Source: Amoebophrya sp. A120 (lineage: Eukaryota > Protista > Dinoflagellata). From it: 64,000 bases of DNA. Position numbers and translations under genes: made by a program. The stretch is from NCBI GenBank assembly GCA_905178155.1, contig CAJINV010000006.1, positions 2,107,600 through 2,171,599 of the forward strand, given 5' to 3'. Shown here piece after piece: positions 201 to 63,174 of this stretch. The notes below the pieces were generated by a model, which had not been told where the DNA came from, did no database searches, and saw only the letters and a program-made list of their open reading frames with translations. The first letter of the stretch is position 1. Each line of letters begins with the position of its first letter.

Positions 201-3200
201 GTGCATCTGGAGAACCAATTACAGAAGGAGAACTTGAACATTTTCGACGTGCGAGGCGATATGCAAAGAAAAAAATTAAAGTTTTACAAAAATTACACAC
301 AGTGATGCAAAACGTGCAAGACAGATGACCTGTGCCATGCCCAAAATGCTTGCGGGTCTCGTTTCGTGTGTGTTTTGCACTATGATCTCTGCATTACAAG
401 TTTTCTTCGTCATGCGAGGCAACGTTGTAATGCTGAATTCACTACAAATCCAATGTGTTGTGTAACTGTAACACTTTTTTTTCTTGGATAGGCGAGGACC
501 CGAAATTAGTGGAGAAAATGCTCTTTCTGCTGATAAAGACTGCAGAAGCCCCCCTCACCGTCATTTGTATTGCATGAGCAGCAGTACAAGTGTCAGCGAG
601 AATGCAGGTTTTGCATGACAAATCTGAACAGGAGTGTAGTGCTATTTCGGCTCCTGCCAGAACTTGTCATGCAAAAAATTGCAAGAGGCACAGGGTGGAT
701 TTGGTGCTTCGCATTACAAATGAGCGGGACGAGGGGGAGTTGTGCCCTCTCATAGCTGACCACCCACCCACAGAACCAGGGTGACGCGTACTTGCGGCTG
801 CTGTTGAAAATGCCGGAAAAGTTCGGATATCAAATGCAAAAATGTCTGGGTCTGGAAGAGGCGGGACTTGTCATGCACATTTTGCATGACCCGTGAGGTC
901 TGTGACGCAGGTCCTAGCATCACAGATCTTTTGAGGCCTTCTCGATGCTTATCACGCATGAGAAATGCCCTCTCCGCGTGCCAAGAACTGTCTCCTCTTG
1001 CTCCTCATGCAACACAGATATTTTTAGAATCCGCAGACAGAATTACAACTTGCATTCATCTTCCAGACCCAGACACTTTTACATTTGATATCGGAACCTC
1101 GCGGTATTTGGTGCAGGAGGTGCTGAAAAATTTCTACTTGCTTTTGTGGGAAAAAAACCGGAGACTGGAGCGGCAGAACAGCATCGCAAAGCAGCCCATG
1201 CGGATCAATGACGTGAGTCTGGTGGAACTCGACGTGATTCGGGACGACGAAGATCTTGACAGTGACGCCGATTTTTTTTACAACAGCAACTCCGGAGGTG
1301 CAACCTCCTCAACATCCACCCTCCGTGCCTTCATCGATCTCGAGACTTCCCAAGGAACGAAAAGCATCGAAGCAAGTTTGATGGAGAGCCGGCGAGAAGA
1401 AGATTTTTCAGTAGCTTCTGCAACTGGCAACTGCCCGGAAGATCTCTCCGCGGAAGCGGATATTTTAGCTACGCCGATTTTTGTCGGGTTGAGTGATCCA
1501 GACGTCGATTATGGTTTGGCGGTATCAAGTGTAAAAATGTCTGGGTCTGGAAGAATGCAACTTGTGATGCTGCATTTGGAGTCCAGAAAAATCTGTATTG
1601 CATGAGTACCAAAAGGAATGTAATTTTTGCTACGCGGATAGGGCATTTGTCATGCGGAATAGGCACCAGGAAGCTCTCAAAAAATCTGTGATGCTAGGGC
1701 ATGCATCACAGACATCAGGGCTCATGCAAAACGTGCATGACAAGTGTCCGAATCTTCCAGACCCAGACATTTTTACAGTTGATAAGCGGATGGAAGTTCG
1801 GGAGGAGGTGCGGATGGAAAATTTTCCTCCTCCAGTACCTCTCCAGCGATGCTGACCCTAGCAGAGACGAAACGCAGGCGGGAAGATCTTGGTGACTCAG
1901 AGTCTGGACGAACATCAAGCGACACAAGTGCGGGGAGTAATATTAGGGAAACCGCTGATTTGGAAACCGGCACTGGCATTCTTGCAACAACTACAGCATC
2001 TAGTTCCCACGGTTTGCGCGAGTTTGGGAGGAAGGCCGAGAGGAGGAGGAACAAGCAATTTCAACACGAAACAGGCCGTCCAGGAGGCTCGACGGAACTA
2101 GTACCGGGTGCTGGAGCGAACATTTCGTCTTCTCGCCGGGGAATGAAGCACGCGAGCAGAAATCACAGTGTGACGCAAGAACGGCAGCTTCTGACATCAC
2201 GGAATTCATCCCGACAGCCTCTTCTCGGACGGCGCGGTATCAAATGTAAAAATGTCTGGGTCTGGAAGGATTCATGTTTGTCATGCTCGTCTGGCATAAC
2301 TCTTAAATCTGTCATGCACATTACCCAAGAGCTCCGCTTTTCTGTGATGCAGAAGCGCAGTTTGTCATGCAGAATAGGCAACACCTAGGACCTCAGAAAC
2401 TTTTCATGCTGAGCCAACATTTGTAGCCTCATCATGAGACGCCGCCCAGCATCACAAGTTTCCAGACTTCCACCCAGACACTTTTACATTTCATACGCGG
2501 CGTGACTGCACAATTTCAATCCCAACAGCAACAGCAGCCTGCGACGAACTTTATCTACGGCTACAATCCGTATAATCCACCGGGGCAGCTGGTGGGAATG
2601 ACAGCAGTCTTACCTCCTGGCGCGCCTGCGTATAATTACGGCTACACCTACAGCCCAATGCAGCAGTTCCAGCCTATGGCGGGCGTTTTTATGCCACCGC
2701 AAATTGCACCAGGAGGAGCTCCGGTGATGATGCAGCAACCGTCGCAGATGATGATGCCAGCGGGAGGTGGCGGTGGAGCTCCTGCGCCAGGAGCCGTGCT
2801 GCCACAAGAAGGTGCTAGTATGTACAATGGTTTCATGGGAGGTGGATCACCCGTGTCCACGTCTCAACCGATGATGTACAACTTCAGCCCACAACAGCCA
2901 CCGATGCAGGTGTACAACTACGGAGCAGCAAGCTACGGCCCACCCGTGCAGCAGCAAGAACTGTTGCAGCAGCAAGAGGCGAGAACGAACACAGGAGCAT
3001 CTTCTGGCGCCGGTGAAATAACTACGGAAGATGAAGTTGTGTCGCCTGATCATCAGACGCAAAACGGAGAACTGGAACAACGTGGGGGGCAGCTTGTTCC
3101 GGACGATGCTGTTGTTGACCAGGACCAAGATCAACAAGAACGGGATGAGCAGGTGTCGTCGACCAGTAGTACATCAGATGACCAAGCAACTGCATCACCA

Positions 3201-3793
3201 CCTGCAGGCACCACTCGATCTACAAACGAGCTGCTCCAAACGTCGTCCGCAGGGGGTGGCTCTTACTTTCTCCCGCCACAACAACCGGCATTGTACTTTA
3301 CGTCGTTCCTGCAGGAAAAAGAACAGTTCTCGGCGAGCGCTGGAACCAGCAGATCATTCACCAAAACCACTAGCAACAAGAGAAAATCCAACCAGCTCAA
3401 CGTGATGATCTACTACCGGGATGCGGTGCGGCATGAGTAGGAATTGCAAAAGTGATGTCGTGCTAGTTCTACTAGTAATTGCAATCCAAATTTTCTCAGC
3501 GCGCGCATGCCAAATGGAGTTTCTTGTAATGCTGCTTTAGCCTAGAAAGGCGATTTGTCATGCATATCTGCAATTAGCACGACCACGAGTTGCGCGATCA
3601 GACTTTTGCAATGCATAACAAGCGGCGGAAGCTGATTCAGTTTTTCGACCAGGAAACCAGTGATTTTCCGCTGGACAAGGTGGAATTTTTCAAGACGTTG
3701 GAGGAGAAGGGGGACCGGAATTTGCGGCTGTTGCTCCAGCATTCGGTGGCGGTGGACAAAGACACGCCGTATTTCAACCTGGTGTATTCCTAG
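1..3793 (+). CDS. Multi-exon gene, 5'-truncated by the window; protein of unknown function with a Gln/Pro/Met-rich low-complexity region
   Basis: Exons ~201-259, 491-533, 755-827, 1091-1522, 1785-2237, 2496-3437, 3618-3793 join in frame after removing introners (VHLENQLQKENLNIFDVRGEDPKLVEKMLFLLTTHPQNQGDAYLRLLLKMPEKFGTSRYLVQE...PYFNLVYS*). Stop TAG 3791-3793. Confidence 0.75.
260..490. mobile_element. Introner family E
   Basis: TATGCAAAGAAAAAA...ACACTTTTTTTTCTTGGATA; DR GGCGA/GGCGA. Confidence 0.85.
534..754. mobile_element. Introner family K
   Basis: Imperfect TIR TAAAGACTGCAGAAGCCCCCCTC / GAGGGGGAGTTGTGCCCTCTCATA; DR GCTGA/GCTGA. Confidence 0.7.
828..1090. mobile_element. Introner family A
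   Basis: TATCAAATGCAAAAATGTCTGGGTCTGGAAG...CTTCCAGACCCAGACACTTTTACATTTGATA; DR TCGGA/TCGGA. Confidence 0.9.
1523..1784. mobile_element. Introner family A (opposite orientation to 828-1090)
   Basis: Family A TIRs; DR GGCGG/AGCGG. Confidence 0.9.
2238..2495. mobile_element. Introner family A
   Basis: Family A TIRs; DR CGCGG/CGCGG. Confidence 0.9.
3438..3617. mobile_element. Introner family B (degenerate)
   Basis: TAGGAATTGCAAAAG...CTTTTGCAATGCATA; DR ATGAG/ACAAG. Confidence 0.75.
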
Positions 3794-4429
3794 ATGAGAG
3801 GATGAGGAACGATTAAGTTTAGTACGGGAAGCAGCTCCTGAGGAGGGGTGTTGATGATGGGGAGGAGCTGCATCAACTGGGGGTGAGTGACCACGAAAGA
3901 TCGTGACACTGGAAAGTGACAAGAGCCGCAACATACTTGTCTGGTCAAGAAGCTGCCCTGTCAGAAGAAGTAGAACCGATCCACTACCCACAACGACCGC
4001 AGCCACAGCAGGGCTGATAATTTGCAACTATTTCAGAACAGAAGAACACTTTTTTTTTCACAGACTTATTTTCAATAAACTTACCTTTCAGCATTCTATA
4101 CTTTTCGCACAAATGGTAATGGTTTTAAATCAAATACGTTTCGTTTCTTTTTCAAAATGAGGACAGCATGGATAGTTGTTCGTCAAGCAGCGTTGAAGAT
4201 GAAAAACTCCTGTACAGAATAACATTGATAGGATTGAGTTTGAACAGATCATTGGTTCGCAAGAAAAATGTATTTCTGCGACGTACCGATGATGTTAAAG
4301 CACCACGGGGGCTTCTTGCAAATATTTGTTTCGCGAGGCCGGTTCACTTGTGTTCCCGCTTTGCCAGCGAGGCGGCGGCGTCTTTGTATGTTGTGTCGAA
4401 GTTGTGCAAAAAGTATTCACCACAAGAGA

Positions 4430-5820
4430 AAACGAGGGAGGGGCGCAGCAGTGTGCTGGGTCTGTGAGGCCCTCGGCCGGCGAGGTGTTGCGCCCTTCCT
4501 GCCATGGAGGGGGTGGCGGCCGGCGGGGTTTTTATATTTTTCCCGAATGGAAACGACGGGCGCCGCTGCTCGTCAGGCGATTGCGCTGGTTCCTGAAGTT
4601 CTTGAGCGACTGTGGAGCGGGGCCATCGGGGGGCACATTGTTGGCGCACCAGCGCCCGGAGGGCGACGCGGGCCGCCGTTGTGGATATGGGTGACGGAGT
4701 GGGCGGGCTATCGGTCCGGCCAGTCTGGCGGCAGGCTCGCTGACCCGGAGAGGGAGCCGACGGAGGTCCGGGCGGAGGTTTCTCCGGCGTCGTGCCACCA
4801 GCTGGACACGAAAAACGCACACCCGGGAAAGAAGCCGCCGGCGGGCCCCCTGGTCAGTCTGCCTGCCTTTCGTAGCGAGGGAGCGAGGCGCGTCAGCGGC
4901 CGGCGCAGTTTGTGCACCCATCGGCGCCGGTAGCGATGGGGGCGGGCCTTGTCTGTGTCGCAAGGAAGCCCTGCCGCGCGCTTGGGGGCCTGTATGGCGG
5001 CCGCCCTTCGCTTCGTGGAGCGAGGGCGGCCGCCCTTCCTTTGGGCGTGTGCCTGTGGGTTTCATTTCATTCGCGCCGGCCGCGAGCTAGCGGCTGCGGC
5101 GGGGCGGGAAAAGCGAGGCGGCCTGGCGCAATGATCTACCCTGGCGCCCGTCGGGCCCCGCCAGCGAGCGCTAAAAAGGACCTGGAACAACGCAGCCGCC
5201 TCCTCTGATGCGCCTCCCCCCCGGGCCGCAGAAGCCCCGGGCCGTGTATGTTCCCGCCGCCTGGCCGGCCGCCGGCTGGCTGCCGCCCGCCTCTCCCCGG
5301 GCCGGTACCTGGTTGCCTACCAGGCTGTGGACCGGTGGCCGGCCCTGCCAAACGCTGGTGGGGCCCTTTCTTTGTCGGCCCGCGCGCGATTTGTAGGCAG
5401 GCCGGCCGGCCCGGTCCGGACGGAGCGGTCGCCTCCTGTCGCGCCGCCGCCCGCGGTTGGGGCGGGCCCGCCCGCCGGCCGGGCGAAGGACTAAATTTGT
5501 TGGCTTGTGTTTGGCCGACCCCATTCATTGGCAGGCAGGCCTGGCAGAGTGATTGCTGGGCCTGCCAAGGCAGGGCCGGGCGGGCGCCCGCTGGGCTGGA
5601 TGGTTCTTGCCTCCCCATCTTGCGAAGCACTCTGCGCGACCACGCCCCCGACGAAGGGGCCGCCCGGTGTTGCAGCATGCAGGGAGGCACCTGGGTGGGC
5701 ACCCAGCATGCGTCGTCCATCCAACCTACCATTGACGGCCGCCTTCGTGCCGCGGTCGGTGAAACGAAGGATAAAAGGGCCCAACGTCAGGCGTCCCAAG
5801 GTGGAAGCGTGCATTCCCAT
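4430..5820. other. GC-rich intergenic island upstream of the p25alpha-like gene
   Basis: Visibly very GC/CpG-rich, no introners, only spurious Arg/Gly/Pro/Ala ORFs. Confidence 0.6.
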
Positions 5821-6608
5821 AATCTCAGCCGCGTCGCAGCTGTGTGGGTGTCCTCTGGCCCGTCCTCGATCCCTGCCCTAGTTGTGTCTGTGTTCTCATT
5901 GTTGTCGCAGATGACGATTGTTCTGCGCAGAAGCTGAAGCAGGTCTCCTGCTACAGCGGGTCCTTTCCCTGCAGTCATCCGATGAGCCCCATCGGGGTTG
6001 AAGGTACCTCGCTAGCCGCAAGCATACCAAGTTGCCAAATAGCTACCTACCAGCACTCGCAGCACAGCATCTTTACTGCCACTTATTGCCGCACGAATCC
6101 TTCATCGACCTCCTCTTGGCAATATTGAGTAGATTAAGATATCTCTTCGCGTGCTGATGGAGTGACAACCTGCGCGACTTGACTATACTACATCAAGTTG
6201 AACCAACATGAAAACTTTCACGAACAAGAAGACGAGCACGACTGTTAATATTCGGAGCGTTGACCACGTCGAGAAGGAGAAGATGACAAAGCGCCAAAAT
6301 TCATTAATTTCGTATGTGAAACACGCCTGCTCTCGTCCACCTGTGGATGTAGTGGCACTGCTCGGTGCAAGCAACATAAAATCTTCGAGAATACAGACGA
6401 GAATGTCCACAAGAACTACTTCTACTTGTACTACCTGGGGAGATTCTTCTGTGACGTGAAACTAGTAACTCCGCCGGCCTCGTCGTCTTCCCCGCCGCAA
6501 TTACCTATCTATTGCTTCAATTCTTGGAGTTATCCCCACACCGAGAACGAGGCGGGCCAAGTGCGTGCAACATCGAGTGACCGCGACCCGCGCAGCACAG
6601 TTGCCACG

Positions 6609-9600
6609 ATGACCGTGCTCTCGGCCGCTGGGCCCGCGAAAGAACCACCCGGCGTGATGAACCCGGCTTCGCAGGGTGGTGGTGCAACTGCCGCGGGGAC
6701 CTCCAAACCGCCTGGTGGTACAGGGACTGGCGCAAGTGTCGAGGAAATCGAACAAACATTGTCGGAGATCTTCGACTTTTACGCAACACGGCCGCATTCC
6801 AAAAGTGCTTTGCTCTTTACATTTGTCATGCGTGCTACGACGTGGTCGAGAAGAGCATGGATTAGGATTTGTCCTTCATAATATTGGTAGCGCAGCAGAA
6901 TGCATAGACTGCAACTTGTCGTGCTGCTAGGTCTGCGACAGTGACGAGGAAGATCATGCACATGATAATTTTTCAACACATCGTCCGCATTAACAAACCA
7001 CTGCACCTTCAGGTACCGGCTCCTCTGTCCTAAAGTCTGCCAAATTCATGAAGATGTGTCTGGACGCCGACCTGGTGGACGACATGCAAAGCACCCAGGC
7101 TTCCGACCCACACGCGCGGTCGAAGCTGTTGACGTCTGCACGGTATCCTGTGCAAAAGTGTCGTACTCGTATTTTTGCAGTCAAGCTCATTACAAATCTT
7201 TTTCTCGAGGTAAATCACCGTATACAAATTTCATTTCTCATGCTGAGAAAATTTGTAATGCAATTCATACTAGTACGATATTACTTTTGCAATGCATACG
7301 CGGGTCGACTTGATTTTCAAAAAGTTGTGCGGGAACCGAACGACCATGACTTTTGAGCAGTTCATGAACGCTTGCGTCCAAATCGCGCTCACCAAATACC
7401 CGCACGTCAGCAAAGCCTACGAAGCCTTGTCAATTCTGTACGAGGATATGCATTGCAAACCAAGTACTCGTGCTAAAGATTGCAGACAAAGACATGCATT
7501 AGTGATATTATAAAATGTAAATCAGCATGACAAATTCCAGTTGTAATGCTGAGATACAATTGCAATTCCTGCTAGGTCGACGAGTATACTTTATTTGCAC
7601 TCTATAGAGGAGCACTTTTCGAAATTTCTCAACCCGCACGCGGAGCTCCTTGGCGTGTTCCTAGGCGGGCAACAGGACCACGCGGGCATTGGGGAGGAGT
7701 CTTTTTTCGAAGCCATCGCACCGGTCAAGGAGGCCGTGCTGACGCTCTATCAAGGGTATAATTTCATTTTCACGTTTTTCTGAAACCACTCAACGCATCT
7801 ACTTTCTTACTTTCTATCTCTAATTCTACGTATGCAGCTTGCACCGATTCGTTTGGATGATATTTTGTTGCATGACAGTCGCCCTTTGGTTTTGCAGGTG
7901 CTGTTGAAGCAGAAATTCATTCTCATGCGGGCTCTACAACAACTACATGAAAGCAGGATTACGATTAGCAACGCCAATCTCGAATCAAAGGTACTTCTGC
8001 CAGGAGCTTAATCCGCATTTTCAGCAGCAAACGGCAAGCCTCTATGCTGCGCAAAAGCATCGTACGAGTATGAATCGCATGACAAATTTCCTCAGCATGA
8101 GAAAGAAAATTTGTAGTGCGGATTTAACCTAAGAAAGAAATTTGTAATGCATGAATGCGATTAGTACGAGCACGATACTTTTGCGCAGGATAGCCTCGAA
8201 TCGCAGTCGATGAAGGCCTTTCTCGCATGTCTGCACGACTTCGAGATCGCTCCGAATTTGGTTCCGAAACCGATCTGCTTATCGGTTTTCCGGGAGGTAC
8301 TACTAGATGGCAAAACAGTTTTCATCTACGGAGGCTGTGGAGTTTGAGTTTGTCATGCATGCATGAACTTCGAGGGGAAGATGTGGTGCAATAGGGGTTT
8401 CATACAGTAGACTTGAAGTTCTAGGGGTTTCATACAGTAGACTTGGAATTTGTCATGCGGAAAGATATTAAAGCCCAAATCATACTTAATTGACCACGAC
8501 AGGTCCTGAAAGCGAAAATTCCGGAAGAGTTTTTCGCTCAGTTTTTGAAGACCTCGGAGCTCACGGAGGAAGAACTGCAAAGCAAACCGATTTTGACACC
8601 TGAGGAGCTCTCTCTGAAGGGCCGGCTGTTCACCATCGGACACTTTGTGATTGGACTCTATTTGGTCGGAAAAAAACTCCGAAACGACCCGGCTGGGCTT
8701 TTGCAGCAACCGTCTCCGGCAGTGGTGATAACCGAATTGCTGGAGAGGATGGACGTGTCAACGCCAGGAAAAATCATCTTCACTGCGGAGCGTATTGATC
8801 AATGTCGATGTCGTTTAGTTTTCTTGTGCATGATTGATCGCATTTGCTAGTTATTGTTTGCGTGGCCCGCATGATGACATCAGCCTGCCAGGGCATATAA
8901 CTGAAATAATCCTACAACTACATGACAAACTGGTGATCTCCCCTCATCTCTCATTTCAGGCGCCCGGTCCCTCCCTCTCTCCAGTGCTTTCAACGCGCCA
9001 GGGAAAGTTCCGTTTTCGTTCTTCCCCGAACCCAGGCCGCAATCAACATCTTCTCATAGTACCGGACAAACCGGCGCACCAGCTTCGTCATCTTCATCTA
9101 GTCAACAAAACTACAAAAAACCGACATCCCAGCACCTGCAACAAATCGGCGGCAGTTCGTCTTCCAGTAGCAGCGCGACGAGGCCTATCCAGGAAAAAAC
9201 ACCCATCCCCATCCATGTTTTGCATGACAAGCACTAGATTTTATGCCTGTTTTGCATGACGAATTGGATGGGGATGGGTGTTTTTTTGTGGATAAGGGCC
9301 AGGGCCGGGAGCACGCGAAGCCCAACCACGGGGATCATGAAGAATGGTTTGTCTAACAACTTCGCTAACCGGATTAATAATTCTGGGTCTTCCGCCGGGA
9401 GAAGAAATTTTTCGAAATTTCTCATTCCGGACGACGTCGGGGTTTTCCTCCAACAGCAACTAAAACTGAAAGAAGACGACGATGGATCGGTTCTTTCCGG
9501 CGAGGAGATTGACCACCTGCTCCAGCAGCTCTTCCTTTACTACAGCTCGCTCGGAGACCCTCTGAACCGAAATAGCATGAGCTCCATGAAGTTTAACCGG

Positions 9601-12730: not shown

Positions 12731-13749
12731 GAGGAAGAGGGTGTTGTAGCAGGGGGAGGAGTTTCTTCAGTTTTACTCGGCTAGTTTGGAGTAGAGCTAC
12801 AACTGTGCTGGCTTGTTAATACACTTCATGTAGTCAGCACCCACGCAAATCTAAGGAAAAAAACGACATAGACAATAGAGCTTTCGCATCTCATCCACCA
12901 GGGACAACTCGCCGATAATCATTTATTCCACAGCTATACCAAAACGAGGCTTGTTTCGTGCTTTCAAGAAAATTTTATACTCGTGTCGAACAAAATATCA
13001 CCGTGTCGGTTAGCCGTAAGGCAGCAGCTAAGACAGATTCACAGCAAATTCAAATATACGATATACGCTTTCGATCGCCGAAGAGTCCTTACACAGATAT
13101 TACCACATCCACATTTTTACTGCAAGAGTCGCACATCACAATCACTGTAGCAAAACTACTATAAAGCGCATCAGACTTCACTCACAAGACGAAAGTTTCA
13201 TTCGGATCGATAGGTGACAAGGTAGTTGTCGTATTGTAAAAACGCCTTTAGGTAGTTGTACTGCCGAGATGATGCACTCTGAAATTCATCTCGGACTACG
13301 ACGATGCAACAAATGAACTTGATGCTACATCAAATTATAGTCGCACACATCCTACCCTGTTAGAATGAACGCAAATGTATCAACTGTGACGCTGCTGTAA
13401 GTGCCTCTTTCTACCATTTCAAAAATGTCTTTTTAACTCTGCTCTGTCGGTTCACAACTCGTCTCCTGAGTCTGCTTTTTTGGAATATGAGAAAACTGCA
13501 CCTGAAAGTGGAAATGGAAATCAGAAAAGCGAAAGGTATGAAAAAAGCGGCTGCAGAGTATGCCCGTTGTGTGGGCCGCGGCATTTTAATGATAGTAGAT
13601 GACGCACACACCGTCGTCAGCCGGGACGATCATTCACGGACGTGCTCACGCCCTTCTGAAGCTGAACATAACCAGCCGAGTTTTGTGCTCACTGTGTGCC
13701 AGATGATCCCCAGTATAACTGCGCAAACTCAGACAGCCTCCCTCACTTG

Positions 13750-38391: not shown

Positions 38392-38490
38392 CACCTAGTA
38401 ATTCTATATTCATCTCCGGTGCTTTTTTGTACCAGTACAACCGTGTGACTGAACGCAGATGTTGAAAAAAAGAGAACAAGGCTCTTCTAG

Positions 38491-52445: not shown

Positions 52446-53168
52446 AGAGGATGGTTTTTTCGGAGAACCGATAGACAAGCCGCATCTAGCGGATGTTTGT
52501 CGTTGTTCCCCGGGTTCTGAAACAACGATGGTAAGTCACTGGTATCGAATTCAAAACTAGACGACAAGGACAATGTCCTCTAGTCCATTACAATATGCAG
52601 CTGACAAAACAACTTTTTACGAGTATTGTTTTAATTTTCTTCCTTCCAGCGCCGGTTTCTACTTACTTTTAATCGTCCCGACACCTTTTTTCAAGAGCAA
52701 TCAATTTCAATGCCATTGCCTATTACAACATACAAGAAGATAGACAATACAACAAGAGCAAGACGTTAGCCTATTACAACACCCAGCCTCAATTCAATTT
52801 TCCAATAAAAAATTAGTAGAGTAAGAGCTGATACAGATGCAACAACTATGTAGCCTGAATTTAGGATTAGGATTTGAATTTATTTGTTTCAACACGAATG
52901 TACGAGAATCAATGGAGGGCTGTGTCTTTTGAAATTTATTGATCAAGAGGCATGCGCAGGAGATTGCAACCACATTATTACCTCGATAGTGATTAGTCTA
53001 TGCTGTTCCACCGCCGGTTTAGACGCGAGCCGCGACCGCAGTTTCGCTTCACAAACAAGGTGTGAACTCTTCAAAATGAGGATGAGCATTGAGCATGAGG
53101 TCGAGTTTAAATGTATGATACAACGTCGATAAAAAAACTACAACGACGGCACGCACATGCACATAGAC

Positions 53169-54185
53169 ACACATTCAGGAGAATACCAATACATAGAACG
53201 GACCCAGCCATTTTCCTATATTGGACGAATCAGAATTGGAGCTTCTCCTCCAGATGTTCCCGTTCTCGAAAAATGCTGTTCTTATCCCTCCTTTCCGTGC
53301 ATAGATAAGAACACCATTTTCAGGTCGTTACAAACGTGTTCTTATCTATGCACGGCGTGGAGGATAAGAACAGCATTTTTCGAGAACGGGAACATTTGGC
53401 GCAGAAGCTCCAATTCTGCTTCGTGCCAAACACCAGCTTCAGGTCGTTACAAGCATGTTCTTATCTATGCACGGCGTGGAGGATAAGAGCAGCAGTTTTC
53501 GCGAGCGGGGACATTCGGCGCAGAAGCTCCAACTCTGCTGCATGCCAAAACATCAATTCCAGGTCGTTGCAGTAGGTGTTCTTATCTATCTTCCCGAAAT
53601 GTTTGAACGAGTAACCGGCGGGGGGCTTTCAGGGTCTTCCGCCAGTGCGTCCACCATCACCGCGGAAGCGGTGCCAGCGGTGAGTGATTGGGGCGGTGGG
53701 TGAGAGATCGAGGCGCGTTTGAAGAGTTCCGAGAGGTCTCGAGGGGCCTGCGTACCAAGCCCGCACGAGCCGGCTTGCGGCCTTTTTTGGATCGCGAGTA
53801 CGTAGGGCCCGGGGCCGCGAAAAAGATGCCCGCCTGCGCCTGTTGGGCGTGCTGTGAGTGCCCGTGGGTCGCGTCGATCTGCGCAGTGGGGGGGGGGGCC
53901 ACTTTAGTCTATGTCTAGGCTCGTCGGGGTCTTGGCGTGCCTGTTGGTTCCTCTAGAAAGACGCCTGGGCCGCGTGAAAAAACCCGCCAGGGAAGGCAGC
54001 AGCACTCCTACGCAGATGCGACCATAAAAACTGCAGCGCCTGCGTTGGCGCAAAAAAAAAGGCAAATCCCGATGGTATGCTGCGAATTTCTTTAGGGATA
54101 AGAACAATGTTGAAGATCACCTATTTCGTCTCTATAACACATTCAGGAGAATGCCAATACATAGAACGGACCCAGCCATTTTCCT
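53169..54185. repeat. Composite repeat: ~120-bp tandem units plus an inverted unit (53218-53590), all bracketed by 49-bp direct repeats
   Basis: ACACATTCAGGAGAATRCCAATACATAGAACGGACCCAGCCATTTTCCT at 53169-53217 and 54137-54185. Unit TTCAGGTCGTTACAA...GTTCTTATCTATGCACGGCGTGGAGGATAAGA occurs ~2.3 times, with its reverse complement at ~53230-53315. Confidence 0.8.
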
Positions 54186-55210
54186 GAAAGAAAGCAACTT
54201 TTATTTAAGCGAACAATTTTCCATCCTGATATTGTTGAGGTAAAAAAAAACAGATTGAAAAAAAAAGAGGGACAATTTTGAATATATTCTTTCTTTCTTT
54301 CTTTCTCTCGTGCCTGGGCATGGCGTCAAAGGTTCGAAGGCCTACAAAAGCATCGCAATCCAATTGAATATATTCTGAGGCTGTGATCGATCGACAGGAA
54401 TCTTATGATCCATATTTCAAGAATCCATCCTGCATCGTCAGATATCGAATAATCATACCATCGGAAATTTTTCAAATTCTTTCTGATTCATGTCTTCAAA
54501 AAATTCATGCATGGATGGTATAATATGGTTAAAGTTAAATCATTGGAAAATGAAATTCGGAATGAATTCTTATCAGGATCTGTGGTTCGTTATGTTTCTG
54601 TAAAAGTCGGAATCTTCATGATTTGCAAAATTTTTGAAAAATTTGTGGTCAAAATTTCCAACCAATCAGATCGATCACCGATATAGATCATCGAAAACAA
54701 GGACAATAATGATCAATAATCTTTTTCCATCGAGAAATATGATATGATCAATAATCTTTTTCCCATCTGGATTCTGGAAAATCCAAGATCATTATATTTA
54801 GATGATTCGATGAAAAATTCCGAAGAGATTGATGTCGATGAAAAATTATGAAAAAAATATGTATCGATACATATGGAAAATATTGTCCTACATATATCCA
54901 ATCGATCTATCGATGATTTCGATTTTTATTTGATGGAATGGATTATTTGGGGAATCTGGGGAAATTCTATTGAGATTCTCAAATTGATTTTCATATTCGA
55001 TCTTCAATATCTTACCCTAGATATTCAATATCTTTCTAATTATCTCTCTCATCATGAAAAATTTTATATGGAAATTGATATTCCATCATGTATCAATGCA
55101 GATCATAGATTCCAATATCGAAAATCTGAGATTACATCCCTTCAATTCTGTTGCTGAAAAGAAAAAAAAAAAAAATCAAACATATTCAATTCTATTCTTG
55201 ATCTTCATCG

Positions 55211-55370
55211 GATGATTTGACTGAGGTAATTTTGGAAATCCATATTCCGAATCAATGTGATGATAATATTTTCCGATATATTGAGAATTGAAGATGATTT
55301 GACTGAGGTAATTTTGGAAATCCATATTCCGAATCAATGTGATGATAATATTTTCCGATATATTGAGAAT
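55211..55370 (+). repeat. 82-bp tandem duplication in AT-rich spacer
   Basis: GATGATTTGACTGAGGTAATTTTGGAAATCCATATTCCGAATCAATGTGATGATAATATTTTCCGATATATTGAGAAT twice. Confidence 0.9.
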
Positions 55371-56392
55371 CCGATTTATCTTATCCATGACCATGTCTGC
55401 TATACCGATGAAAGCGAAGAGATTCCAAAATACGAAATTCTACAACGACATCGAACAAATCCCGAGGAACGCTATGTTGAGAGTGAGTGCTTTTCGTTTT
55501 CAAATAAATGTTTGCATTCCACAGAAGGACACTGAGAAAATATTCAAGACAACATGAGAAGTCTTTTCATTTTCCGCGAGCCCCAAATTTGCCGGCCTAC
55601 GGTTTCTCATCGTGTTTGGCTTTCAAATCTCGAAAATCTTGCTCAAACGTTTTCGGATCTCGTTATGATTTCATCGATAGCTGAGGTTGCAGCAATGTCA
55701 ATCCCAAGAATCAGAAATAAAAAAGATGGGTGTGATTCTGTTTGAGATGAATGAATCCATGTTGCATACATACATACACGACGCATTTTGCCCTGTGTCG
55801 GGGGTGCGTGCCGCTCGATTTTTGATCGTGACACCGGGAAAGCGATCCACCCAAACGATTTGTACGGAGGAGCAAGAGTGTGAAGCTACCCTCTGTGTTC
55901 GCGATCTGGCTAGACCGGCGAACAGCGCAAGAGGTGAACATCGGAGCCGGGAGGAGATTCATCCATGTTGCATGAATCTCTTGAATTCCGAGGTCTGTAC
56001 TATTTCCTCCTGTTCCCGGTCAGAAACAGTATTTTTTTATGTGTTTTCGTTTTGTATTTTCTTTTCACCATAAGATAGTCTGATGTGGAATATCGGTAAG
56101 AAAATGTAGTTGGAGTTGGTGTGAATGGTTCCAGGTGCATGTTCATGTTGTTCTTTCGATCTTGGTCTTTGCTTTTGCATGCCAATAACAATAAGTCTGC
56201 GTAGCCTATTCCAACTACACTGCAAGCAGTGGAGGTGGCCCCATCGCATCCATTCGCTATCGCTTAAAGGAAAAAATTGAAATATACGTTTGCACCATAT
56301 TTCGAGCACTTCAAAATTGTTGCGTTCGTTGTAGCAGTTGTTCCTTCGTTTCTCTTTCTTCCTCCCTTCGTGTATTTTTACCGTCGGCGTGA

Positions 56393-59300
56393 TCAATCAA
56401 TGTCGGACAACAAATGCTCATGATCAATGCGCCCGCTGCTCCCGCCGGGCGGTTGCAGCTGCGGCATTCCCACGGCCGCAAAGATTTTGCTTTGCTGCGC
56501 CTCTATCTCGGCCTCGGTAGCTGCGGCCTCGTCTGCGTTCCCGCTTTTTTCGCGCAGCAGAACGTCCAAAAGCAGTGGCACTTGCTTCGACCTCCTGGTC
56601 GCCTCGTACGGAGAGAGGTGTGGTTCTTCAGATGTTTGATACTGATCTATTCTCCCAGTCCCACCTGAAGGCGGCCCAGCACTTGTCGATGGCAAAAATG
56701 TTGGTGCCGGGTGCATAGGCGGCGGCGTTGGTGGTTGGGTGAGAGTAGATTTTTTGTTGTTAGTGCTACTAGAACTTGTACCCCAATGTGCATGTGGGCT
56801 TTGATGTTGACTCACAGTCGTAGGACTCCCCGCGGTGGCTCCTGCGAGAGCGAAGTCAGGGCTCGGAGTTGTACGTGCTGGCGTGGTATCAAATGTAAAA
56901 GTGTCTGGGTCGGGAAGAATGCATGTTTGTCATGCTTGTCTGGCATAACTCTTAAATCTGTCATGCACATTACCAAAGAGCCCCAAATTTCTGTCATGCA
57001 GAAACAGTTTGTCATGCAGAAAAGGCAAGACCTAGAAGCTCAGAAACTTGCCATGCTGCGCTAGCAGTTGTGCCCTCCTCATGATACGCCACCTAGCATC
57101 ACAAGTTTCCAGACCCAGACATATTTGCAATGCATACGTAGTCGATCCCCCGCTTGATGGTGATGGACCGCCCACAGCGTGTTGGCATGAGGCAGAAGAT
57201 TTCGTGCCGTGCACACCACCTTCTTGGTGGACCATTTGCATGCTATCCGTTGGGTCAACTACGCCCCGCAGCGGCACCGGCGCTATCAGGTGCTGATGCT
57301 GTAAACCAGGGACTAGCGGTTCAACAGCAATCCCGCTAGTAGACAAGTCCATCGGCTGATTCGGTGGCGAATTCGAATTGGTCGTGTACACGCCTCCAGC
57401 TCCAGATGACATTGCAGGTGGGAGGCGAACCACCGGCACATGCATGTAGGACGACGACCCGCCCGCGTGATGCTGCATTCCCATTCGGTTATCAAATTCG
57501 ATTTGCCCCGGACTTCCCGGCCGGCTTGGTAGCTGCTCTACTTGAAACGGAGGAATCACAGCGCCCCCGCTGGTCGGCCCGATCCCGACATTTACCTGCT
57601 GTTGAAGATTATGATTGTGCTGCGGATGTTGCACGCAGGGATAAGTAGGGTAAGGCTGTCCAGCGATGAAAGGACCCTGATACGTAGGCGCGGTTAGCAA
57701 ATCCGGCGTCCCTGTACGGCTCGGAGCCTGCTGCTGAAATTGTTGTTGATCTATATTGGGCGGAGCTCCCGGAGGCAGGTAAAATGCGACTGGCGCAGCT
57801 GTACATGTACTAGGTCCCATAGGTGGAGAAAATTGTGATGTGAATTGGTTGAAATAAGCTGCAGCAGGAGCATATCACAAGAAAAAAGCGTTACAGTTAC
57901 ACATTTGTAGTCACTTCAGCAACACAAATTTCTCTGCATGAGAGAGAAAACTTGTAATGCAGAAATCCTACGGGAAAACACCTATGAAACGAGGCTCCTA
58001 TGCGTATCCGGCATGACAGAGCTTGTCTGTCTTGCTTGGCCTGCAACACAATGTGTAACTGTAACACTTTTTTCTTGCGATACAGCAGGGTCACCAACAA
58101 CTACACTATTGCCCACAGATAAAAATTCAGAAGTTCGGTCTCCTGGCAGGTTGAAACTGGCACTGTTTCGCCTCAGCAATCCGCTCCCACGACCAGATAG
58201 TACCGATGTGGCGGTAGTAGATCCAGTGCCATCTTTCCCTTTCGTAGTCACCTCGCGGGGAGACAAAGACAAAGCGCCACGATCTCGGGTTCTTGTGCTA
58301 CTAGCGGGCTTTTTTTCGTTTGCAGCCTCTGCTTTTCCTTTTTCCACATCAATCGCAGAACCGGCGTGGTGAAGTTGGTTGCGGTCCCGTCTCTTCGTTT
58401 CAATTTTCGACGGTCGTTGGTCTGCCCGCCACAGACTGCCGGTGGTGGTGCCGAGTTGCAAAGGCGGGCGTGCCGCAGCAGCTGTACTAGTACTACCTGC
58501 ATCTGCCCCACTTGCCTCCACTGTAGCTCCAGCTGCTGCCTCTGGGGTTTCTGCACTGCTAGCTCCGCCCGCGCTTGTTCCACTGGCGGCCTCTCCCGAA
58601 GAGGCAACCTTTCTTCGTCCACGTTTGCTTCGAGCACCGTACAAAGGCACAGCAGGTCCAGCGCCAGCCCGGGTCGGCAGAGTAGGACGCTGCGTCTTCA
58701 TCTCGTCCTCTGCCGGCGCGACAGCTGTCGGTGCAGCTTTCCCGTTGCTGGCAGGTTTTTTGACAGCGCCAGTAGCAGAAGTACTAGCGTTTGCGAGCGA
58801 AGCTTCCGCATTTTCGGTTGCAGAAGCAGAGGCTTGGGTTTGTTGTTCATTCTCAGGACCGGCTGGACGAGCAGCTGCAGATGAAGCGTTCTTCATCTGC
58901 TTCTTCCACGTCTCCATCTTGTATTTCTGGAACATTGCCAGCCGCGCTTCGTGCGCCCGCACTGTCATGGCGTTCTGCGCTTGCGCCGCCCTGCATTCTG
59001 CCTGTTCCAACATGGTTCGCAAAACGGTTCGTGTCTTATGCAATTCGTCATTTTGGGTTCGCAAAGCGGTTCTGGTTTTTTGTAACTCGTCATTTTTCGC
59101 TTGCAACTCTTGAATCCAAGCGAACGCCTCCGTCAGTTGCTGATCTTTGGCTTCCAGCTGTCGCTGCAGTCGTTCGACTTCCAAGTTTTTACTCTGCAAC
59201 AACGTAGACACTGCAGAAATATGCATTTTGCAAATATCTGCTTCGAAGATGATCTGGACTGTCGTGGAAGAATGACTTGTTCGAGAAGATCGTCGTTTCT

Positions 59301-60983
59301 CATGGTCGCCTTGTGACTCAGACTCCGACTCGAATGTTTGTCATGCACGTTCTTTACCCAAAAGGAAACTTAAAAGCTTTCTGTCTCGTGTGTCATGCCG
59401 TCATTTTTCTAGGATAGGCCCTCGAAAACTTGTCACGCTCTGTACTAGCACGGTTGCATTTCAATTTCCCCTCCATCAACCAGCTGCATCACAAGTAGTA
59501 TGCTCCAGACAACTCAGATCGAAGCTATTGCTATTGATATTTGCAGTGGATAAGAAAACGCGTTTTGTGACTGCGTTTCCTCGAGGGTGCTAGAGCTGGG
59601 GTTCGGCGCAACAGCACCTTGAGCAGGCTGCTCTCTCCTACTGTCCGCTTCTTGCTGAAAAGTAAAACCAGGTCTATCATGGACCCATGCTGGTGGAGCT
59701 GGAGCAGGTGCCCCGTCTTCTTGTGAAGCCCACTCTTGCTGCTGCTGTTGTTGTTGTTCTGCCTCGGCCTCCAGAAGGGCTGTTAGGTTAACGGTTCCTG
59801 GAGGTTGCCGCGCTTGCTCCGGAGAGGTACTACTAGCCTGAGCCGCACCAGAACAACCTGCTGCATCAGCTCGAGAGGCCGCGTGTTCTGCTCCTACTCC
59901 TAAGTCATGCGCTTGTCGAGATGGATCTTGAAGAAAGGCGAAATTGTGTTGAAACAAAAATTGCAGATTGGGGAAATAATTCTTCAACCCAGGGTGGTGC
60001 CCCCACGTGTTGCTCTCCGGGGTCTGCAAGCGGCACATATTTATTTCATGGTCCACGTCGGGCAACTGCAGAGCTTCCTCGTGGTCTTCTAATAATTGTG
60101 CCGGACGCTTGTGGTCCAGCGGTGCCGTTGGAGGAGCAGATGCAGCAGACGAGCCACCGTCTTCTACTGTTACTGAGTTGTCCTGCTTTGTCGATGCAGG
60201 AGCGCCGCCACCATCAACTACACTTGTCATCCCCTGAAACTCGGCTTGAAACCGTTGATCGTGGTCTTCAGGCTGATGTCCTATTTCTTCTTTGACCCTA
60301 TGTCTTCGCCCTTCAACAGCAGACGACTTCTCCGCGAAAATGTCCGGCGAATGTTGTGTACTCTGCTCGAGTGTTGAGTCTTTATCTCCGCAGGAGTCGC
60401 CGGGGCTTTTGCAACTTCCTGTATCGGGTACTACTTCAAGGAGCTTGTTCTGTGCACATCCAGAACAAGCTGGTGCAGGGTCTACAGGCACCGGCCCTTG
60501 CGCATTCGCTCCTTGTTGGGCGGCCCCTTTATTACGCTTCCGCTTCCTTTTGGGCTTCGATTTACTAGTGTTTGAAGTTGTACCATCGCGAGTGACACCA
60601 CTAAGCTCCGGGAAGTCATCTACAGCTGGCGCCGCTTGATCTTGTTCAGCCATTGCGGAAACTGCGGCGGCGGAGGTCTTTTTCATCTTCCCAGACACGC
60701 CTCTAGCAGTACCTCCTGCTAGTTGTGGAACCCGAAGCGCCGGACCTCCCGGATGCGCTGGGGGAGTTGAAGGCAGGTTCTTTGGGGAAGATGCTGTAGT
60801 ACTTGATGCTGAGGCTCTAGCGCTAGCGCTGGCTCCCCCCGTTGGCAAGACGAGTTGTAGAGCGGGCGCGGTAAGAACCCAGAAAAACATGACTGCCTTG
60901 ACTGTAGCTCGTTGCGCCAAGCCGGTCAGGTTCCCCATCTCATTACCGCCAAGGACGGGTGGCTGGCTCCTGTGCCGCAACAT
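56393..60983 (-). CDS. Four-exon gene; low-complexity protein with a central coiled coil, unknown function
   Basis: ORFs 59514-60983, 57982-59226, 57032-57820 and 56393-56815 on - appear to join once the introners at 59220-59552, 57873-58082 and 56887-57136 are removed. The last junction was checked codon by codon. Confidence 0.7.
56887..57136. mobile_element. Introner family A (in a - strand gene)
   Basis: Family A TIRs; DR CGTGG/CGTAG. Confidence 0.9.
57873..58082. mobile_element. Introner family E
   Basis: Family E TIRs; DR GAGCA/CAGCA. Confidence 0.9.
59220..59552. mobile_element. Introner, family A-like (degenerate)
   Basis: TATGCATTTTGCAAATATC...GATATTTGCAGTGGATA; DR AGAAA/AGAAA. Confidence 0.75.
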
Positions 60984-62120
60984 GTTGACGGCGAGGAAGG
61001 GGATTCACGATTCGTGATGTCCCTGTTTCGTCGATCAACACTTCTGTTGAGTCCCAAGCAAGTCAAGAAGTTTGTGGTGCCGAAATATATAAAATTGTAA
61101 AATGCGTTTTTGATTTATTAATTGTGAAGAGAAGCGCGACACAAAATTTGTTTTCGAACAAATTTTCATGCACATGCACGGTAACAAAAACCAGGTCGCT
61201 GCAAAAATGCGTTCAAGAGCAGGATGACACTCTTCAAGTTGAAAAAAAAGTTAGCTGCTGATTTGTTCTTCTAGAAGAGAAGAGCTGCACACAGAATAAA
61301 TGAGTGGCTTTTTTCTATAGCCCAGTTAGTATAACAGCTGCTAAAGCAAAATCGAACGATGCATCTACAATTTCGAATCCGTAGTTCTTGAAAAATTAGA
61401 CAGCGACAGTGTTCTGAACGTCGACAGGACTGTGGGTGTAGCTTGTTCTTCTTGGGTGAGTTCTTCATTATATGCGCGGCTATCTTGAAAAATCAAACCG
61501 GACATCAATGTAGCATTGCGACATCTTCAATGAGTAAAGCTAACGCAACATGCGCGTCTTGCGTATCCGCTTTCCGCTTACTTTTGCTGTGATCATAGCG
61601 CGATGTTGAAGAAACAGAGCAGGATCTACCTCGAAGCTAGATAAATAGAAGTTGAAGATCTTTGATCTCCGAATTTCTCTGTTCTTATTTCTGTGTCTCA
61701 CTCAAGAATATACAATGCCGGATCTTTCGATCGCCACATCTGTCCTGTGCATGATAAACACTCGCTTTCAACACAGTCAGTGTGACACTGTAACTGTTTA
61801 ACAAGGGAGTGATGAATCGGAGCTCCTAGAGATCGCGAAATCTTGGAGTGGACGGTGGCTTATTCGCGCAATTACATGCAGTCCAGCATGACAGAAAACC
61901 TCTTGAGGTCGTATGTAAAGCAGCTGGAGAACTGTTCTGTGCAATTTCGGTCAACATCTGGCTGAGCAAGAAGGGAACACAAGCTGGTACTTCTAGCATG
62001 CCCTCCGTATAATTTTTGCGAACTTCCTCACGGTGGTGCAATCGCGTAGTATACGTCGTGGTCTCCGTTCATCTGTCACCACAGGGTGCGCAACAATCAG
62101 ATGTGCATGGTTGTTCTATC

Positions 62121-63174
62121 TTAATTTTCAATCCAAGCCAAAACATCGGGAGCTGTGTGCAAAATGGTTTTTTTTCTGGAATTTCTTCTAGGAAGACGAT
62201 CTTCACGATTTTTACCATCTTCAGAAGGAAGAGCTAGAGTTGTGTTTCTGTCTCCTGCGACAATAAAATCCCGCACCGCGTCGACTACTTGGTATTCGCA
62301 ATTCACGCATGCATTGCAAAAGTACCGCACTCGTATAAATGCATCACAAATTTCCTCAGCATCAGAAATAAAATTTGTAATGCGGATTTACGTTAAGAAA
62401 AAGATTTGTAATGCATGACTGCAATACTTGTACGATACTTTTGCACAGGATATCACGCAATCCGCACTGTAGTCGTGGACCAGTAAAATGGATGGCCTAT
62501 CGGTGACCAACAGCTTCGACCAATGCTCCAGGTCCCACTTATCCAGAAAAACACACCCATCCCCATCCAATTTGTCATGCAAAACATGCATACAGTCCAG
62601 TGTTTGTCATGCAAAACATGGATGCTGGGGATGGGTGTTTTTTTCTGCATACCACTTCGTCTCCTCGTACGAATGGTCCCCGTCGATGAAGATCGCATCG
62701 AACTTGTATTGCTGATCGCCAATCACATTGTCCCCATCGGTAATATCGGGAAGAGCTTCTTCATCTTCTGCAGCATGATTCTGAAACTCCTTCCACGCTT
62801 CCCGACTGGAGACGGCATGGAAGTGGACGTTCGGTGATTTCGCAAATCGTATCAAACGCAAATATGTCTGGGTCTGGAGGAAGAGAGTGCAAGTTTGTCA
62901 TGCTTGTCTGGCATGATTCTCAAGTCTGTGATGCATGAGCAGGAGAAGGGCCTCTTGCCTGTCATGCAACAACGCAGCTTGTCATGCGAAAAACCAAGCA
63001 CACAACAGCACAGAAAACTTGTCATGCTGGGCGGCATATTGCAGCGCGCCCACCATTCGCAAATTAGCATCACAAGTTTCCAGACCCAGACATATTTGCA
63101 ATGCATAAATCGAAACTTCACCTTGGAAAACCGTTTCTTCTGTAACTTCTCCGTCAGGCTCCACGGTTCCATCT
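62121..63174 (-). CDS. Class I SAM-dependent methyltransferase (Methyltransf_24-like), 5'-truncated; upstream exons probably lie beyond the window
   Basis: Spliced: RFAKSPNVHFHAVSSREAW...YKFDAIFIDGDHSYEETKWDLEHWSKLLVTDRPSILLVHDYSADCVNCEYQVVDAVRDF. The FIDGDHSY...HD motif is typical of Methyltransf_24. Confidence 0.8.
62308..62452. mobile_element. Introner family B
   Basis: Family B TIRs (begins CAT); DR TCACG/TCACG. Confidence 0.85.
62540..62651. mobile_element. Introner family C
   Basis: Family C TIRs; DR CCACT/CCACT. Confidence 0.9.
62850..63107. mobile_element. Introner family A
   Basis: Family A TIRs; DR AATCG/AATCG. Confidence 0.9.

What the first reader, a model, noticed from the sequence alone, without database searches (positions are those of the whole stretch)
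260..63107. One short motif (TTGTCATGC / GCATGACAA; variants TTGTAATGC, TGTGATGC, TGTATTGC) is repeated inside otherwise unrelated introner families
Families with no TIR similarity (A, B, C, D, F, G, H, J, K, L, M, N) each carry several copies of this ~9-mer in both orientations. It is rare in exons and GC islands. It persists even in introns that have lost their TIRs (e.g. ~6823, ~8450, ~10957, ~33355, ~41497). Inference: it is a shared cis element, either a binding site for one transposase that mobilises all families or a recognition/folding signal for intron removal. Its retention in decayed introns favours a splicing role.
Basis: partly seen in the sequence, partly recalled or inferred. 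Interest (0 to 1): 0.8.

Follow-up and report, generated by a model that had tools for sequence, protein, structure and literature searches.

The report
Phased DNA motif in parasite introners
Every family of mobile introns in this marine parasite carries the same ten-base motif, mostly in pairs about 32 bases apart and equally conserved in either direction, so it is likely a DNA docking site for one protein that would move these introns and may also help the cell remove them, which gives a bait for finding an unknown splicing machine.

Summary
Real. The genome fits the published description of Amoebophrya A120 introners. The exact 9-mer occurs 99 times: 92 in introners, 6 in GT-AG introns, 1 elsewhere. 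The motif YYTGTVWTGC is in 15 of 15 families, 78-fold over shuffles, at background in exons and intergenic DNA, and its core changes 2.6-fold less than other interior bases. New here is a grammar: 23 of 85 same-direction pairs lie 31-33 bp apart (2.5 expected). Conservation and insertion are blind to the transcribed strand, and families whose sites all face one way form no motif duplex, so a double-stranded DNA site fits better than an RNA signal. Two internal clocks and motif pairs in repeat-less GT-AG introns suggest selection after insertion, but the strictest clock test is weak (p 0.14). RNA contigs put the cut after base 4 of the duplication. No transposase was found. The introners are published; the motif was not found in print. 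This scan noted it once before on another piece of this genome, without spacing or tests.

The parts
828..63107 (.). Family 0, about 260 bp, 19 copies: 828-1090, 1523-1784, 2238-2495, 9627-9886, 11980-12246, 12333-12595, 18485-18767, 21384-21641, 27060-27323, 27728-27983, 35274-35534, 35638-35889, 37608-37897, 39274-39538, 45999-46268, 50528-50787, 51015-51265, 56887-57136, 62850-63107. Sites near 41+, 73+, 91-, 184-, 216- of the consensus.
3438..62452 (.). Family 1, about 150 bp: 3438-3617, 7144-7298, 8043-8192, 15996-16161, 18826-18978, 20758-20913, 27536-27686, 28451-28616, 28745-28913, 36083-36231, 36873-37023, 38659-38808, 40039-40194, 47983-48143, 48362-48529, 48903-49059, 62308-62452. 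Similar ends but clustered apart: 7447-7606, 10569-10748, 26070-26228, 34306-34499, 16338-17337 (nested insert).
260..58082 (.). Family 2, about 210 bp: 260-490, 18074-18284, 25482-25695, 33803-34020, 52167-52378, 57873-58082
   Evidence: junction of 25482-25695 in RNA contig
26306..39204 (.). Family 3, about 280 bp, all six sites face one way (three 31-33 bp pairs); inserted both ways in + strand genes: 26306-26597, 32724-33005, 37194-37509, 38916-39204
17363..36603 (.). Family 5, about 307 bp: 17363-17688, 19985-20294, 26630-26934, 28030-28337, 36298-36603; 28950-30139 with a nested insert
9186..62651 (.). Family 8, about 110 bp, one pair of same-direction sites 32 bp apart; both orientations: 9186-9294, 11115-11222, 20560-20676, 62540-62651
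11267..51716 (.). Single window copies of further families: 39638-39962 (fam 4), 30160-30401 (fam 6), 38241-38391 (fam 9, nested in a longer intron), 19073-19278 (fam 10), 48564-48870 (fam 12), 11267-11547, 47179-47524, 51462-51716 (entered as 51714 in my scripts, 2 nt short)
1..63330 (.). Damaged or cut elements with sites: 1-200, 533-754 (fam 6), 19636-about 19925, 34948-35205, 59220-59552, 63175-about 63330; family-1 relics inside GT-AG introns 34114-34233 and 41336-41469
6805..11917 (+). Seven RNA-confirmed GT-AG introns without TIRs: 6805-7012, 7756-7990, 8297-8502, 8792-8959, 10275-10394, 10845-11069, 11755-11917. Six of seven hold a site at score >=8, three at >=11.
33282..41607 (+). 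Further GT-AG introns: 41335-41607 (RNA-confirmed, site 41497); 33282-33509 (site 33355), 34610-34853, 37974-38095 (gene model only)
62572..62612 (+). Example of the two-site module, sites 32 bp apart; 19 exact matches of the module pattern in the window against 0 in 100 shuffles
24815..31110 (+). Host protein-kinase gene; removing its 12 elements plus one duplication each gives an open frame and exactly the RNA contig offset (1455)
6100..12800 (+). Host gene with 17 introns (10 TIR, 7 GT-AG); spliced length 3393 equals the RNA contig; 1052-aa stop-free frame

Best explanation
The motif YYTGTVWTGC, laid out in pairs 31-33 bp apart inside all introner families, is likely a double-stranded DNA site for one protein (predicted to be the shared transposase or its DNA-binding partner) that would gather the two TAT...ATA ends, and it is likely kept by selection after insertion because the bound protein would help the host remove the intron during transcription. 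SHOWN: presence in all families, spacing, conservation, strand symmetry, shared ends and 5-bp duplication, exact removal of element plus 5 nt. INFERRED: that a protein binds it; that the binder is the mobiliser (family-specific TIR bodies cannot all be read by one protein, the shared motif can); that selection continues after insertion (moderate evidence); that the later use is intron removal (weakest step; it rests on the confinement to introns and on the reported lack of U1 snRNA). The cut leaves an intron N-TAT...ATA-NNNN, whose +2 to +4 equal the GTAT start of 6 of 8 RNA-confirmed GT-AG introns, so a relaxed spliceosome is the likely catalyst.
For: Grammar: 23 of 85 same-direction pairs at 31-33 bp, 2.45 expected, maximum 8 in 5000 permutations; 14 of 15 families have such a pair; the outermost inward '+' site lies 31-33 (8 ends) or 40-43 (10 ends) from the terminus in 18 of 20 cases, one turn apart; 13 of 76 pairs at 31-33 in 49 low-copy elements not used for the matrix. 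Strand blindness: no family shows an orientation bias among 413 stranded elements, family 3 14/8, family 8 5/5; core change 137/4616 vs 146/4408, p 0.37; both TGT and TGC halves conserved on both strands. Not a pairing signal: 0/71 and 0/19 sites in duplex in families 3 and 8, yet family 3 core 0.031 vs other 0.095. Base-specific constraint: 356 core changes vs 951 expected from trinucleotide-matched interior; the free V position changes at 0.06-0.08. After insertion: duplication mismatches rise with element divergence (3.3 to 9.2%) and are 5.8% at 0-fold, 12.1% at 4-fold sites; in families 1-8 core 153/4409 = 3.5% vs 41/565 = 7.3% (p 7e-5, bootstrap ratio 0.48, 0.34-0.75) and vs family-invariant TIR columns 5.6% (p 4e-6). 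GT-AG introns: 3.0 sites/kb, 21-30x shuffles; 1 of 25 site-bearing ones resembles any sampled element where simulated neutral relics are detected in 52-85% (6 of 30 with the five dropped ones, p<=3e-4); TIR remnant in 4 of 25, yet 5 pairs among 38 sites (about 1.3 expected, p 0.01). Splicing: 15 listed joints, 8 TIR introns each skip element + 5 nt; only 13 of 413 elements would be GT..AG.
Against: No binder or transposase was found: none in 9 long elements, none by Pfam in 53 long frames; PMC7789003 reports putative transposases in A25 only. The duplication clock is uneven: family 0 gives 10/514 = 1.9% against core 2.8% (no signal), families 1 and 3 drive the result, families 2 and 4-8 give 9/285. 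Dropping 6 elements with >=3 mismatches gives 26/544 = 4.8% (p 0.14), pooled 5.0% (p 0.017). A tree-free bound for outer sites is 3.7% (p 0.13). 43 of 68 GT-AG introns lack a strong site (32 of 68 lack one at score >=8), 7 of 543 elements have none. GT-AG relics could come from extinct families; 58 of the 68 are gene-model predictions. Family 7 has no 31-33 pair. 33 is also three turns of double-stranded RNA. The 16.4-bp lattice is borderline (R 0.32; null 95% 0.25, maximum 0.33). No element lies securely outside a gene, so the direct control is missing.
Confidence: 0.45

Rival explanations
1. Transposition only: the motif is an ordinary subterminal binding site for the mobilising protein, conserved because only copies that keep it multiply; after insertion it decays neutrally, and sites in GT-AG introns are relics of extinct families.
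For: Fits the DNA geometry and strand symmetry equally well. Family 0 core 2.8% is not below its clock of 1.9%; strict clock p 0.14. Site counts per GT-AG intron alone fit neutral decay at 15-20%. Precedent: Lemi1/Emigrant (PMC1636448, abstract), Spm TNPA (PMC2613891, passages).
Against: Families 1-8 core is below the duplication clock and below invariant TIR columns; core/other stays near 0.39 whether post-insertion time is a small or a large share of the branch; GT-AG introns keep intact 31-33 pairs without homology or TIR remnants.
Confidence: 0.25
2. DNA site with a host role other than splicing: the bound protein (element-derived or host) keeps chromatin open or lets polymerase pass the foldback insert, so sites are selected after insertion while the cut is set by the hairpin and the TAT end alone.
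For: Explains strand symmetry, post-insertion constraint and the absence from many GT-AG introns; every element folds with paired ends (TIR 74-90% paired; z -5.0 and -5.5).
Against: Sites are confined to introns and absent from intergenic DNA and GC islands. TIR 16-30 drifts at about the neutral rate, with arms 12-25% mismatched, so the hairpin alone is a loose guide for a single-base register.
Confidence: 0.13
3. RNA signal: the motif is read on the pre-mRNA by an RNA-binding protein, or folds into a recognised structure, and directs intron removal.
For: Intron-confined; motif bases are paired somewhat more often than other interior bases (0.65-0.83 vs 0.57-0.67); both senses often contain UGCA; constraint after insertion.
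Against: One-way families are spliced in both orientations; equal conservation of both halves in both senses; no motif duplex in families 3 and 8; 17+/15- in GT-AG introns.
Confidence: 0.12
4. No function: shared ancestry of the families or TG/CA-rich composition produces the repeat.
For: 8 of 105 family pairs share interior sequence; elements are TG- and GC-rich (o/e 1.63, 1.83); some termini resemble the motif (11% score >=8).
Against: 78x over dinucleotide shuffles; 97 of 105 pairs share nothing else; spacers differ while spacing holds; base-specific conservation.
Confidence: 0.05

Closest known systems
Introner elements and non-canonical introns of Amoebophrya sp. A120 (PMC7789003; sections 10, 11, 16 and passages read; supplement text searched, figures not seen)
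   Same: Inverted repeats starting TAT, seven variable bases, then As; short direct repeats; non-GT-AG borders; hairpin; many families. Family lengths match A120 rows of PMC12130899 (19 of 58 rows seen).
   Different: The parts read describe no internal motif, spacing or conservation, leave the border position open, report no U1 snRNA and argue against general transposase mobilisation. Here a common internal site, a fixed 5-bp duplication and a cut register are added.
Subterminal repeats of non-autonomous DNA transposons: Spm/En TNPA sites (PMC2613891, passages), Emigrant MITE bound by Lemi1 proteins (PMC1636448, abstract)
   Same: Short repeated internal motif as the cis determinant that lets a trans-acting protein act on non-coding copies.
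   Different: Other termini and duplication length; motif spread through the whole element with 32-bp phasing; shared by families with different TIR bodies; TNPA binding blocks transcription, whereas here the host genes are expressed and the sites seem selected after insertion.
IS3EU/GingerRoot DNA transposons (PMC10045372, PMC12730594, passages)
   Same: TA...TA termini (TAY...RTA in the fungal families); integrase-like elements with TIRs are reported in A120 (family 38, PMC12130899, passages), a lead for the mobiliser.
   Different: Duplication is 5 bp here, usually 6 bp there; no transposase in hand.
Nonconventional introns of Euglena (PMC12501133, abstract) and MITE-derived introns of Fritillaria (via review PMC11282704, passages)
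   Same: Transposon-like introns with paired ends and non-GT-AG borders removed precisely.
   Different: The Euglena code is a CAG/CTG pair near the ends; here +2 to +4 is TAT, and the conserved signal is an internal, strand-blind, phased motif.

Membership tests
Amoebophrya A120 introner elements | Inverted repeat begins TAT, seven variable bases, then at least three As | tested here: met
   Terminus matrix, 94 ends; families 5 and 7 deviate in the A run
Amoebophrya A120 introner elements | Direct repeat of 3-5 nt at the borders | tested here: met
   Exact 5 bp in 330 of 438
Amoebophrya A120 introner elements | Removed from mRNA at non-GT-AG borders | tested here: met
   the runs are RNA by the tool's guess and lack the introns
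Amoebophrya A120 introner elements | Sequence identity to the published A120 assembly | not testable with these tools
   No genome held; organism inferred from the published description
MITE / non-autonomous TIR DNA transposon | TIRs, fixed duplication, short, non-coding, many copies | tested here: met
MITE / non-autonomous TIR DNA transposon | Cognate autonomous element or transposase with the same ends | tested here: inconclusive
   None in 665 kb, none in viral or prokaryote collections; whole genome not available
IS3EU/GingerRoot | TA...TA termini | tested here: met
   PMC10045372
IS3EU/GingerRoot | 6-bp target duplication | tested here: not met
   1 of 438 at 6 bp, 330 at 5 bp
IS3EU/GingerRoot | DDE transposase of that lineage | not testable with these tools
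   No transposase in hand
CACTA (Spm/En) subterminal TNPA sites | CACTA termini and 3-bp duplication | tested here: not met
CACTA (Spm/En) subterminal TNPA sites | Short repeated internal motif shared by non-autonomous copies | tested here: met
   works-like resemblance only
CACTA (Spm/En) subterminal TNPA sites | Bound by an element-encoded DNA-binding protein | not testable with these tools
   Needs pull-down or EMSA
Single-stranded RNA splicing signal (branch point or intronic enhancer) | Strand-specific presence or conservation on the pre-mRNA | tested here: not met
Single-stranded RNA splicing signal (branch point or intronic enhancer) | Present in nearly all introns at a fixed distance from a splice site | tested here: not met
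   Strong site in 25 of 68 GT-AG introns, positions scattered
Euglena nonconventional intron code | C at +4 and G at +6 of the intron, paired with the 3' end | tested here: not met
   With the register, +4 is an invariant T

The most novel reading that the evidence does not exclude
A protein array bound to phased DNA sites, born as a transposon mobilisation complex, marks introns on the chromosome and stands in for the missing U1 snRNP: splice sites would be chosen by DNA-bound protein and end geometry (one base before TAT, four after ATA) rather than by RNA sequence, and the same sites persist in a third of ordinary GT-AG introns.
Probability: 0.25. Interest if true: 0.92.

Novelty: new variant of a known kind. 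Interest (0 to 1): 0.66.

Why it matters
About two thirds of introns in Amoebophrya are non-canonical, U1 snRNA was not found, and neither the splicing mechanism nor the mobiliser is known (PMC7789003). A motif common to all families, with a defined 32-bp module, is a ready bait to fish out the protein, and it unites what were catalogued as hundreds of families of mixed origin under one cis code. The cut register gives a rule for re-annotating borders genome-wide. If the site is needed for intron removal, it would be intron definition from DNA, carried in by a transposon.

Tried and rejected
No whole genome is held, so all counts rest on the window plus 601 kb of non-redundant loci from one other assembly; those loci were found with a family-0 end pattern, so family 0 is biased to young copies and its ends were left out of the end statistics; none is orthologous to the window. 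No RNA holder is on record as RNA; X1 and X4 are one sample; raw RNA runs X7 and X8 covered only repeats. The first gene-finder runs over-called introns; I used the model only for strand (0 of 61 wrong in the window) and for a filtered GT-AG set (59 of 1041 candidates passed, 1 removed as TIR-like, 5 dropped earlier for homology). The 1219 nt of other introns in the gene at 32570-41690 were not fully reconciled. The first motif fit merged the pseudo-palindromic overlap and was refitted. My idea that the terminus is one more copy of the motif holds for a minority only (13% of ends score >=5): rejected as general. My first clock comparison (5.8% vs 3.0%) mixed families and overstated the effect; the matched values are reported. 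CpG decay as the source: CG o/e is about 1. Selection of insertions for GT or AG: G at +1 in 135 vs 129 for the symmetric position; AG 38 vs CT 21, not compared with exon background. Spacer length variants are only slightly rarer in pairs (6.1 vs 8.9 per kb). Rfam: 0 hits. Viral and prokaryote scans: 0. No transposase-like frame at 52400-56600 by eye (not scanned with Pfam). 53 of 76 long frames were scanned with Pfam (52 loci frames plus one window exon). GT-AG introns form no family of their own: 5 pairs above the null, one convincing and without sites. 27 further copies missed by the first detection were listed but not added. Print searches for the motif: (23 papers with 2 of 3 terms, 20 listed, none naming Amoebophrya, 3 unseen); 0 hits for the motif strings in the text and supplement text of PMC7789003 and in 13 of 14 supplements of PMC12130899. 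Figures (logos S24, S25), Roy et al. 2023 and Henriet et al. 2019 were not seen and could bear on novelty.


Full report
Setting. The window holds seven genes cut by short foldback inserts. I curated 69 elements. They start TAT, end ATA and sit in a 5-bp duplication, which matches the published description of Amoebophrya A120 introners (PMC7789003, section 11); the organism is inferred, not matched by sequence. A scan with a family-0 end pattern gave 158 loci from one other assembly, 601 kb after removing overlaps. An automatic finder that recovered 59 of the 69 window elements with no false call found 438 there; with a second pass the set is 543 elements, 15 families of three or more copies and 52 singletons.

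The observation. TTGTCATGC or its complement occurs 99 times: 85 in intact elements, 7 in damaged ones, 6 in GT-AG introns, 1 in a GC island. An unbiased count puts GCATGAC in 14 and CATGACA in 13 of 15 family consensuses. The refitted matrix is YYTGTVWTGC with six near-invariant positions. Density is 18/kb in elements (78x dinucleotide shuffles), 3/kb in GT-AG introns (21-30x), and 0.1-0.2/kb in exons, intergenic DNA and GC islands (1-2x). Core columns are 2-9x better conserved than other interior columns in 9 of 9 families; on terminal branches 356 of 11865 core positions changed against 3391 of 43172 others, and 951 were expected after matching trinucleotides.

Grammar. Same-direction sites lie 31-33 bp apart in 23 of 85 pairs (2.45 expected, maximum 8 in 5000 permutations); 14 of 15 families have such a pair; spacers differ in sequence. 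The outermost inward-facing site lies 31-33 or 40-43 bp from the end in 18 of 20 cases. The 32-bp pair recurs in low-copy elements (13 of 76) and as 19 exact module matches in the window against 0 in 100 shuffles. Three turns of B-DNA are 31.5 bp (textbook value). A 16.4-bp lattice over all pairs is borderline.

How the introns are cut. RNA-type contigs (X1, X4; one sample; RNA by the tool's guess) give 15 listed joints in 6100-12800: 8 TIR introns skip element + 5 nt and 7 are GT-AG; the spliced length 3393 is exact with the two unlisted joints. In the kinase gene, removing 12 elements gives the exact offset 1455 and an open frame. Seven junctions with mismatched duplications allow one common cut, after base 4 of the left copy; five exclude earlier cuts than 4, only one excludes 5, and three were read from piece ends. 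The intron is then N-TAT...ATA-NNNN. Only 13 of 413 would be GT..AG. Six of 8 RNA-confirmed GT-AG introns begin GTAT, the same +2 to +4, which suggests (inference) one relaxed spliceosome for both classes.

DNA or RNA. No family is biased in orientation to the transcript (413 elements). Families 3 and 8 have all sites facing one way, so their pre-mRNA carries only one sense, yet they are inserted 14/8 and 5/5, and copies of both orientations are spliced. Core change is equal in both senses (p 0.37; 0.035 vs 0.035 in families 1-8) and both halves are conserved in both. Folding gives no motif duplex in those two families (0/71, 0/19) though others can form one. A double-stranded DNA site explains all this most simply.

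Does selection go on after insertion? Mismatches between the two duplication copies arise only after insertion. They track element divergence, have the same transition share, and are 5.8% at 0-fold and 12.1% at 4-fold exon sites, as a clock predicts. In families 1-8 the core (3.5%) is below this clock (7.3%, p 7e-5) and below family-invariant TIR columns (5.6%, p 4e-6). Against: family 0 shows no signal (1.9% vs 2.8%), families 1 and 3 carry the clock, and after dropping 6 doubtful elements the clock is 4.8% (p 0.14) or 5.0% pooled (p 0.017). In GT-AG introns, 25 of 68 hold a strong site; 1 of 25 resembles any sampled element outside the motif, where simulated neutral relics are found in 52-85%; 4 of 25 keep a TIR trace; yet 5 pairs at 31-33 bp remain among 38 sites, about 1.3 expected at matching decay. 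Extinct families could mimic part of this, and 58 of the 68 are predictions. I put selection after insertion at about 0.65. The motif is not required in every intron.

Mechanism. Most likely one protein binds the phased sites and gathers the ends. This would let a single mobiliser serve families whose TIR bodies differ, as subterminal repeats do for Spm and Emigrant (PMC2613891 passages, PMC1636448 abstract). TA...TA ends point towards IS3EU/GingerRoot-like integrase elements, but the 5-bp duplication fails that family's 6-bp rule (PMC10045372). No transposase was found. The later benefit to the host is most likely help with intron removal in an organism without a detected U1 (PMC7789003, section 10); this step is inferred, and a chromatin or read-through role is not excluded.

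Novelty. The introners are published. The motif was not found in the searches and supplements named under Tried and rejected; figures were not seen. An unreviewed note of this scan on another piece of the same genome mentions a repeated 9-base internal motif; look-ups for spacing returned nothing. New here: the matrix over 15 families, the 32-bp module, strand blindness, the post-insertion tests and the cut register. Verdict: real, a new variant of a known kind, interest 0.66.

Noticed in passing
window 16466-17310 and 28991-29870; L021:776-1567; L105:1-83: A GC-rich repeat of about 850 bp without the motif is nested inside introners three times (75% identity); the host intron at 28950-30139 is still removed exactly. 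Class unknown.
   Followed up: partly
window 4440-5900, 13560-15200, 22900-24700, 43130-45200, 53600-54050, 63380-64000: GC islands (0.68 GC) between genes, upstream of the + strand genes; candidate promoter regions; free of elements.
   Followed up: no
window 54100-55400 and 53200-53600: AT-rich stretch (30% GC) with a tandem duplication of about 82 bp at 55208-55371, next to a threefold repeat of about 120 bp.
   Followed up: partly
window 34114-34233, 41335-41607: Family-1 elements turned into, or fused with, GT-AG introns: apparent steps from introner to canonical intron.
   Followed up: partly
window 38241-38391: An intact introner nested in a longer intron (about 38134-38460), which has its own sites at 38228.
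   Followed up: no
element positions 16-30, all families: TIR bodies are family-specific short-period repeats, drift at about the neutral rate and the two arms differ by 12-25%, while TAT and the A box at 9-14 change less (detection-biased).
   Followed up: partly
window 26630-26737, 36496-36604, 39449-39538: Raw RNA reads of run X7 hold introner ends joined to other flanks, so some element copies at other loci are retained in RNA or come from DNA.
   Followed up: no
L018:2635-6090: A C-5 cytosine DNA methylase gene split by an introner (Pfam PF00145 in two frames), although CpG is not depleted.
   Followed up: no
L025:1479-1650 and L034:9579-9779: Two predicted GT-AG introns share about 75 nt without sites or TIRs: a possible other repeat.
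   Followed up: no
window 34420-34464: A GAT-type repeat expansion inside family-1-like element 34306-34499.
   Followed up: no
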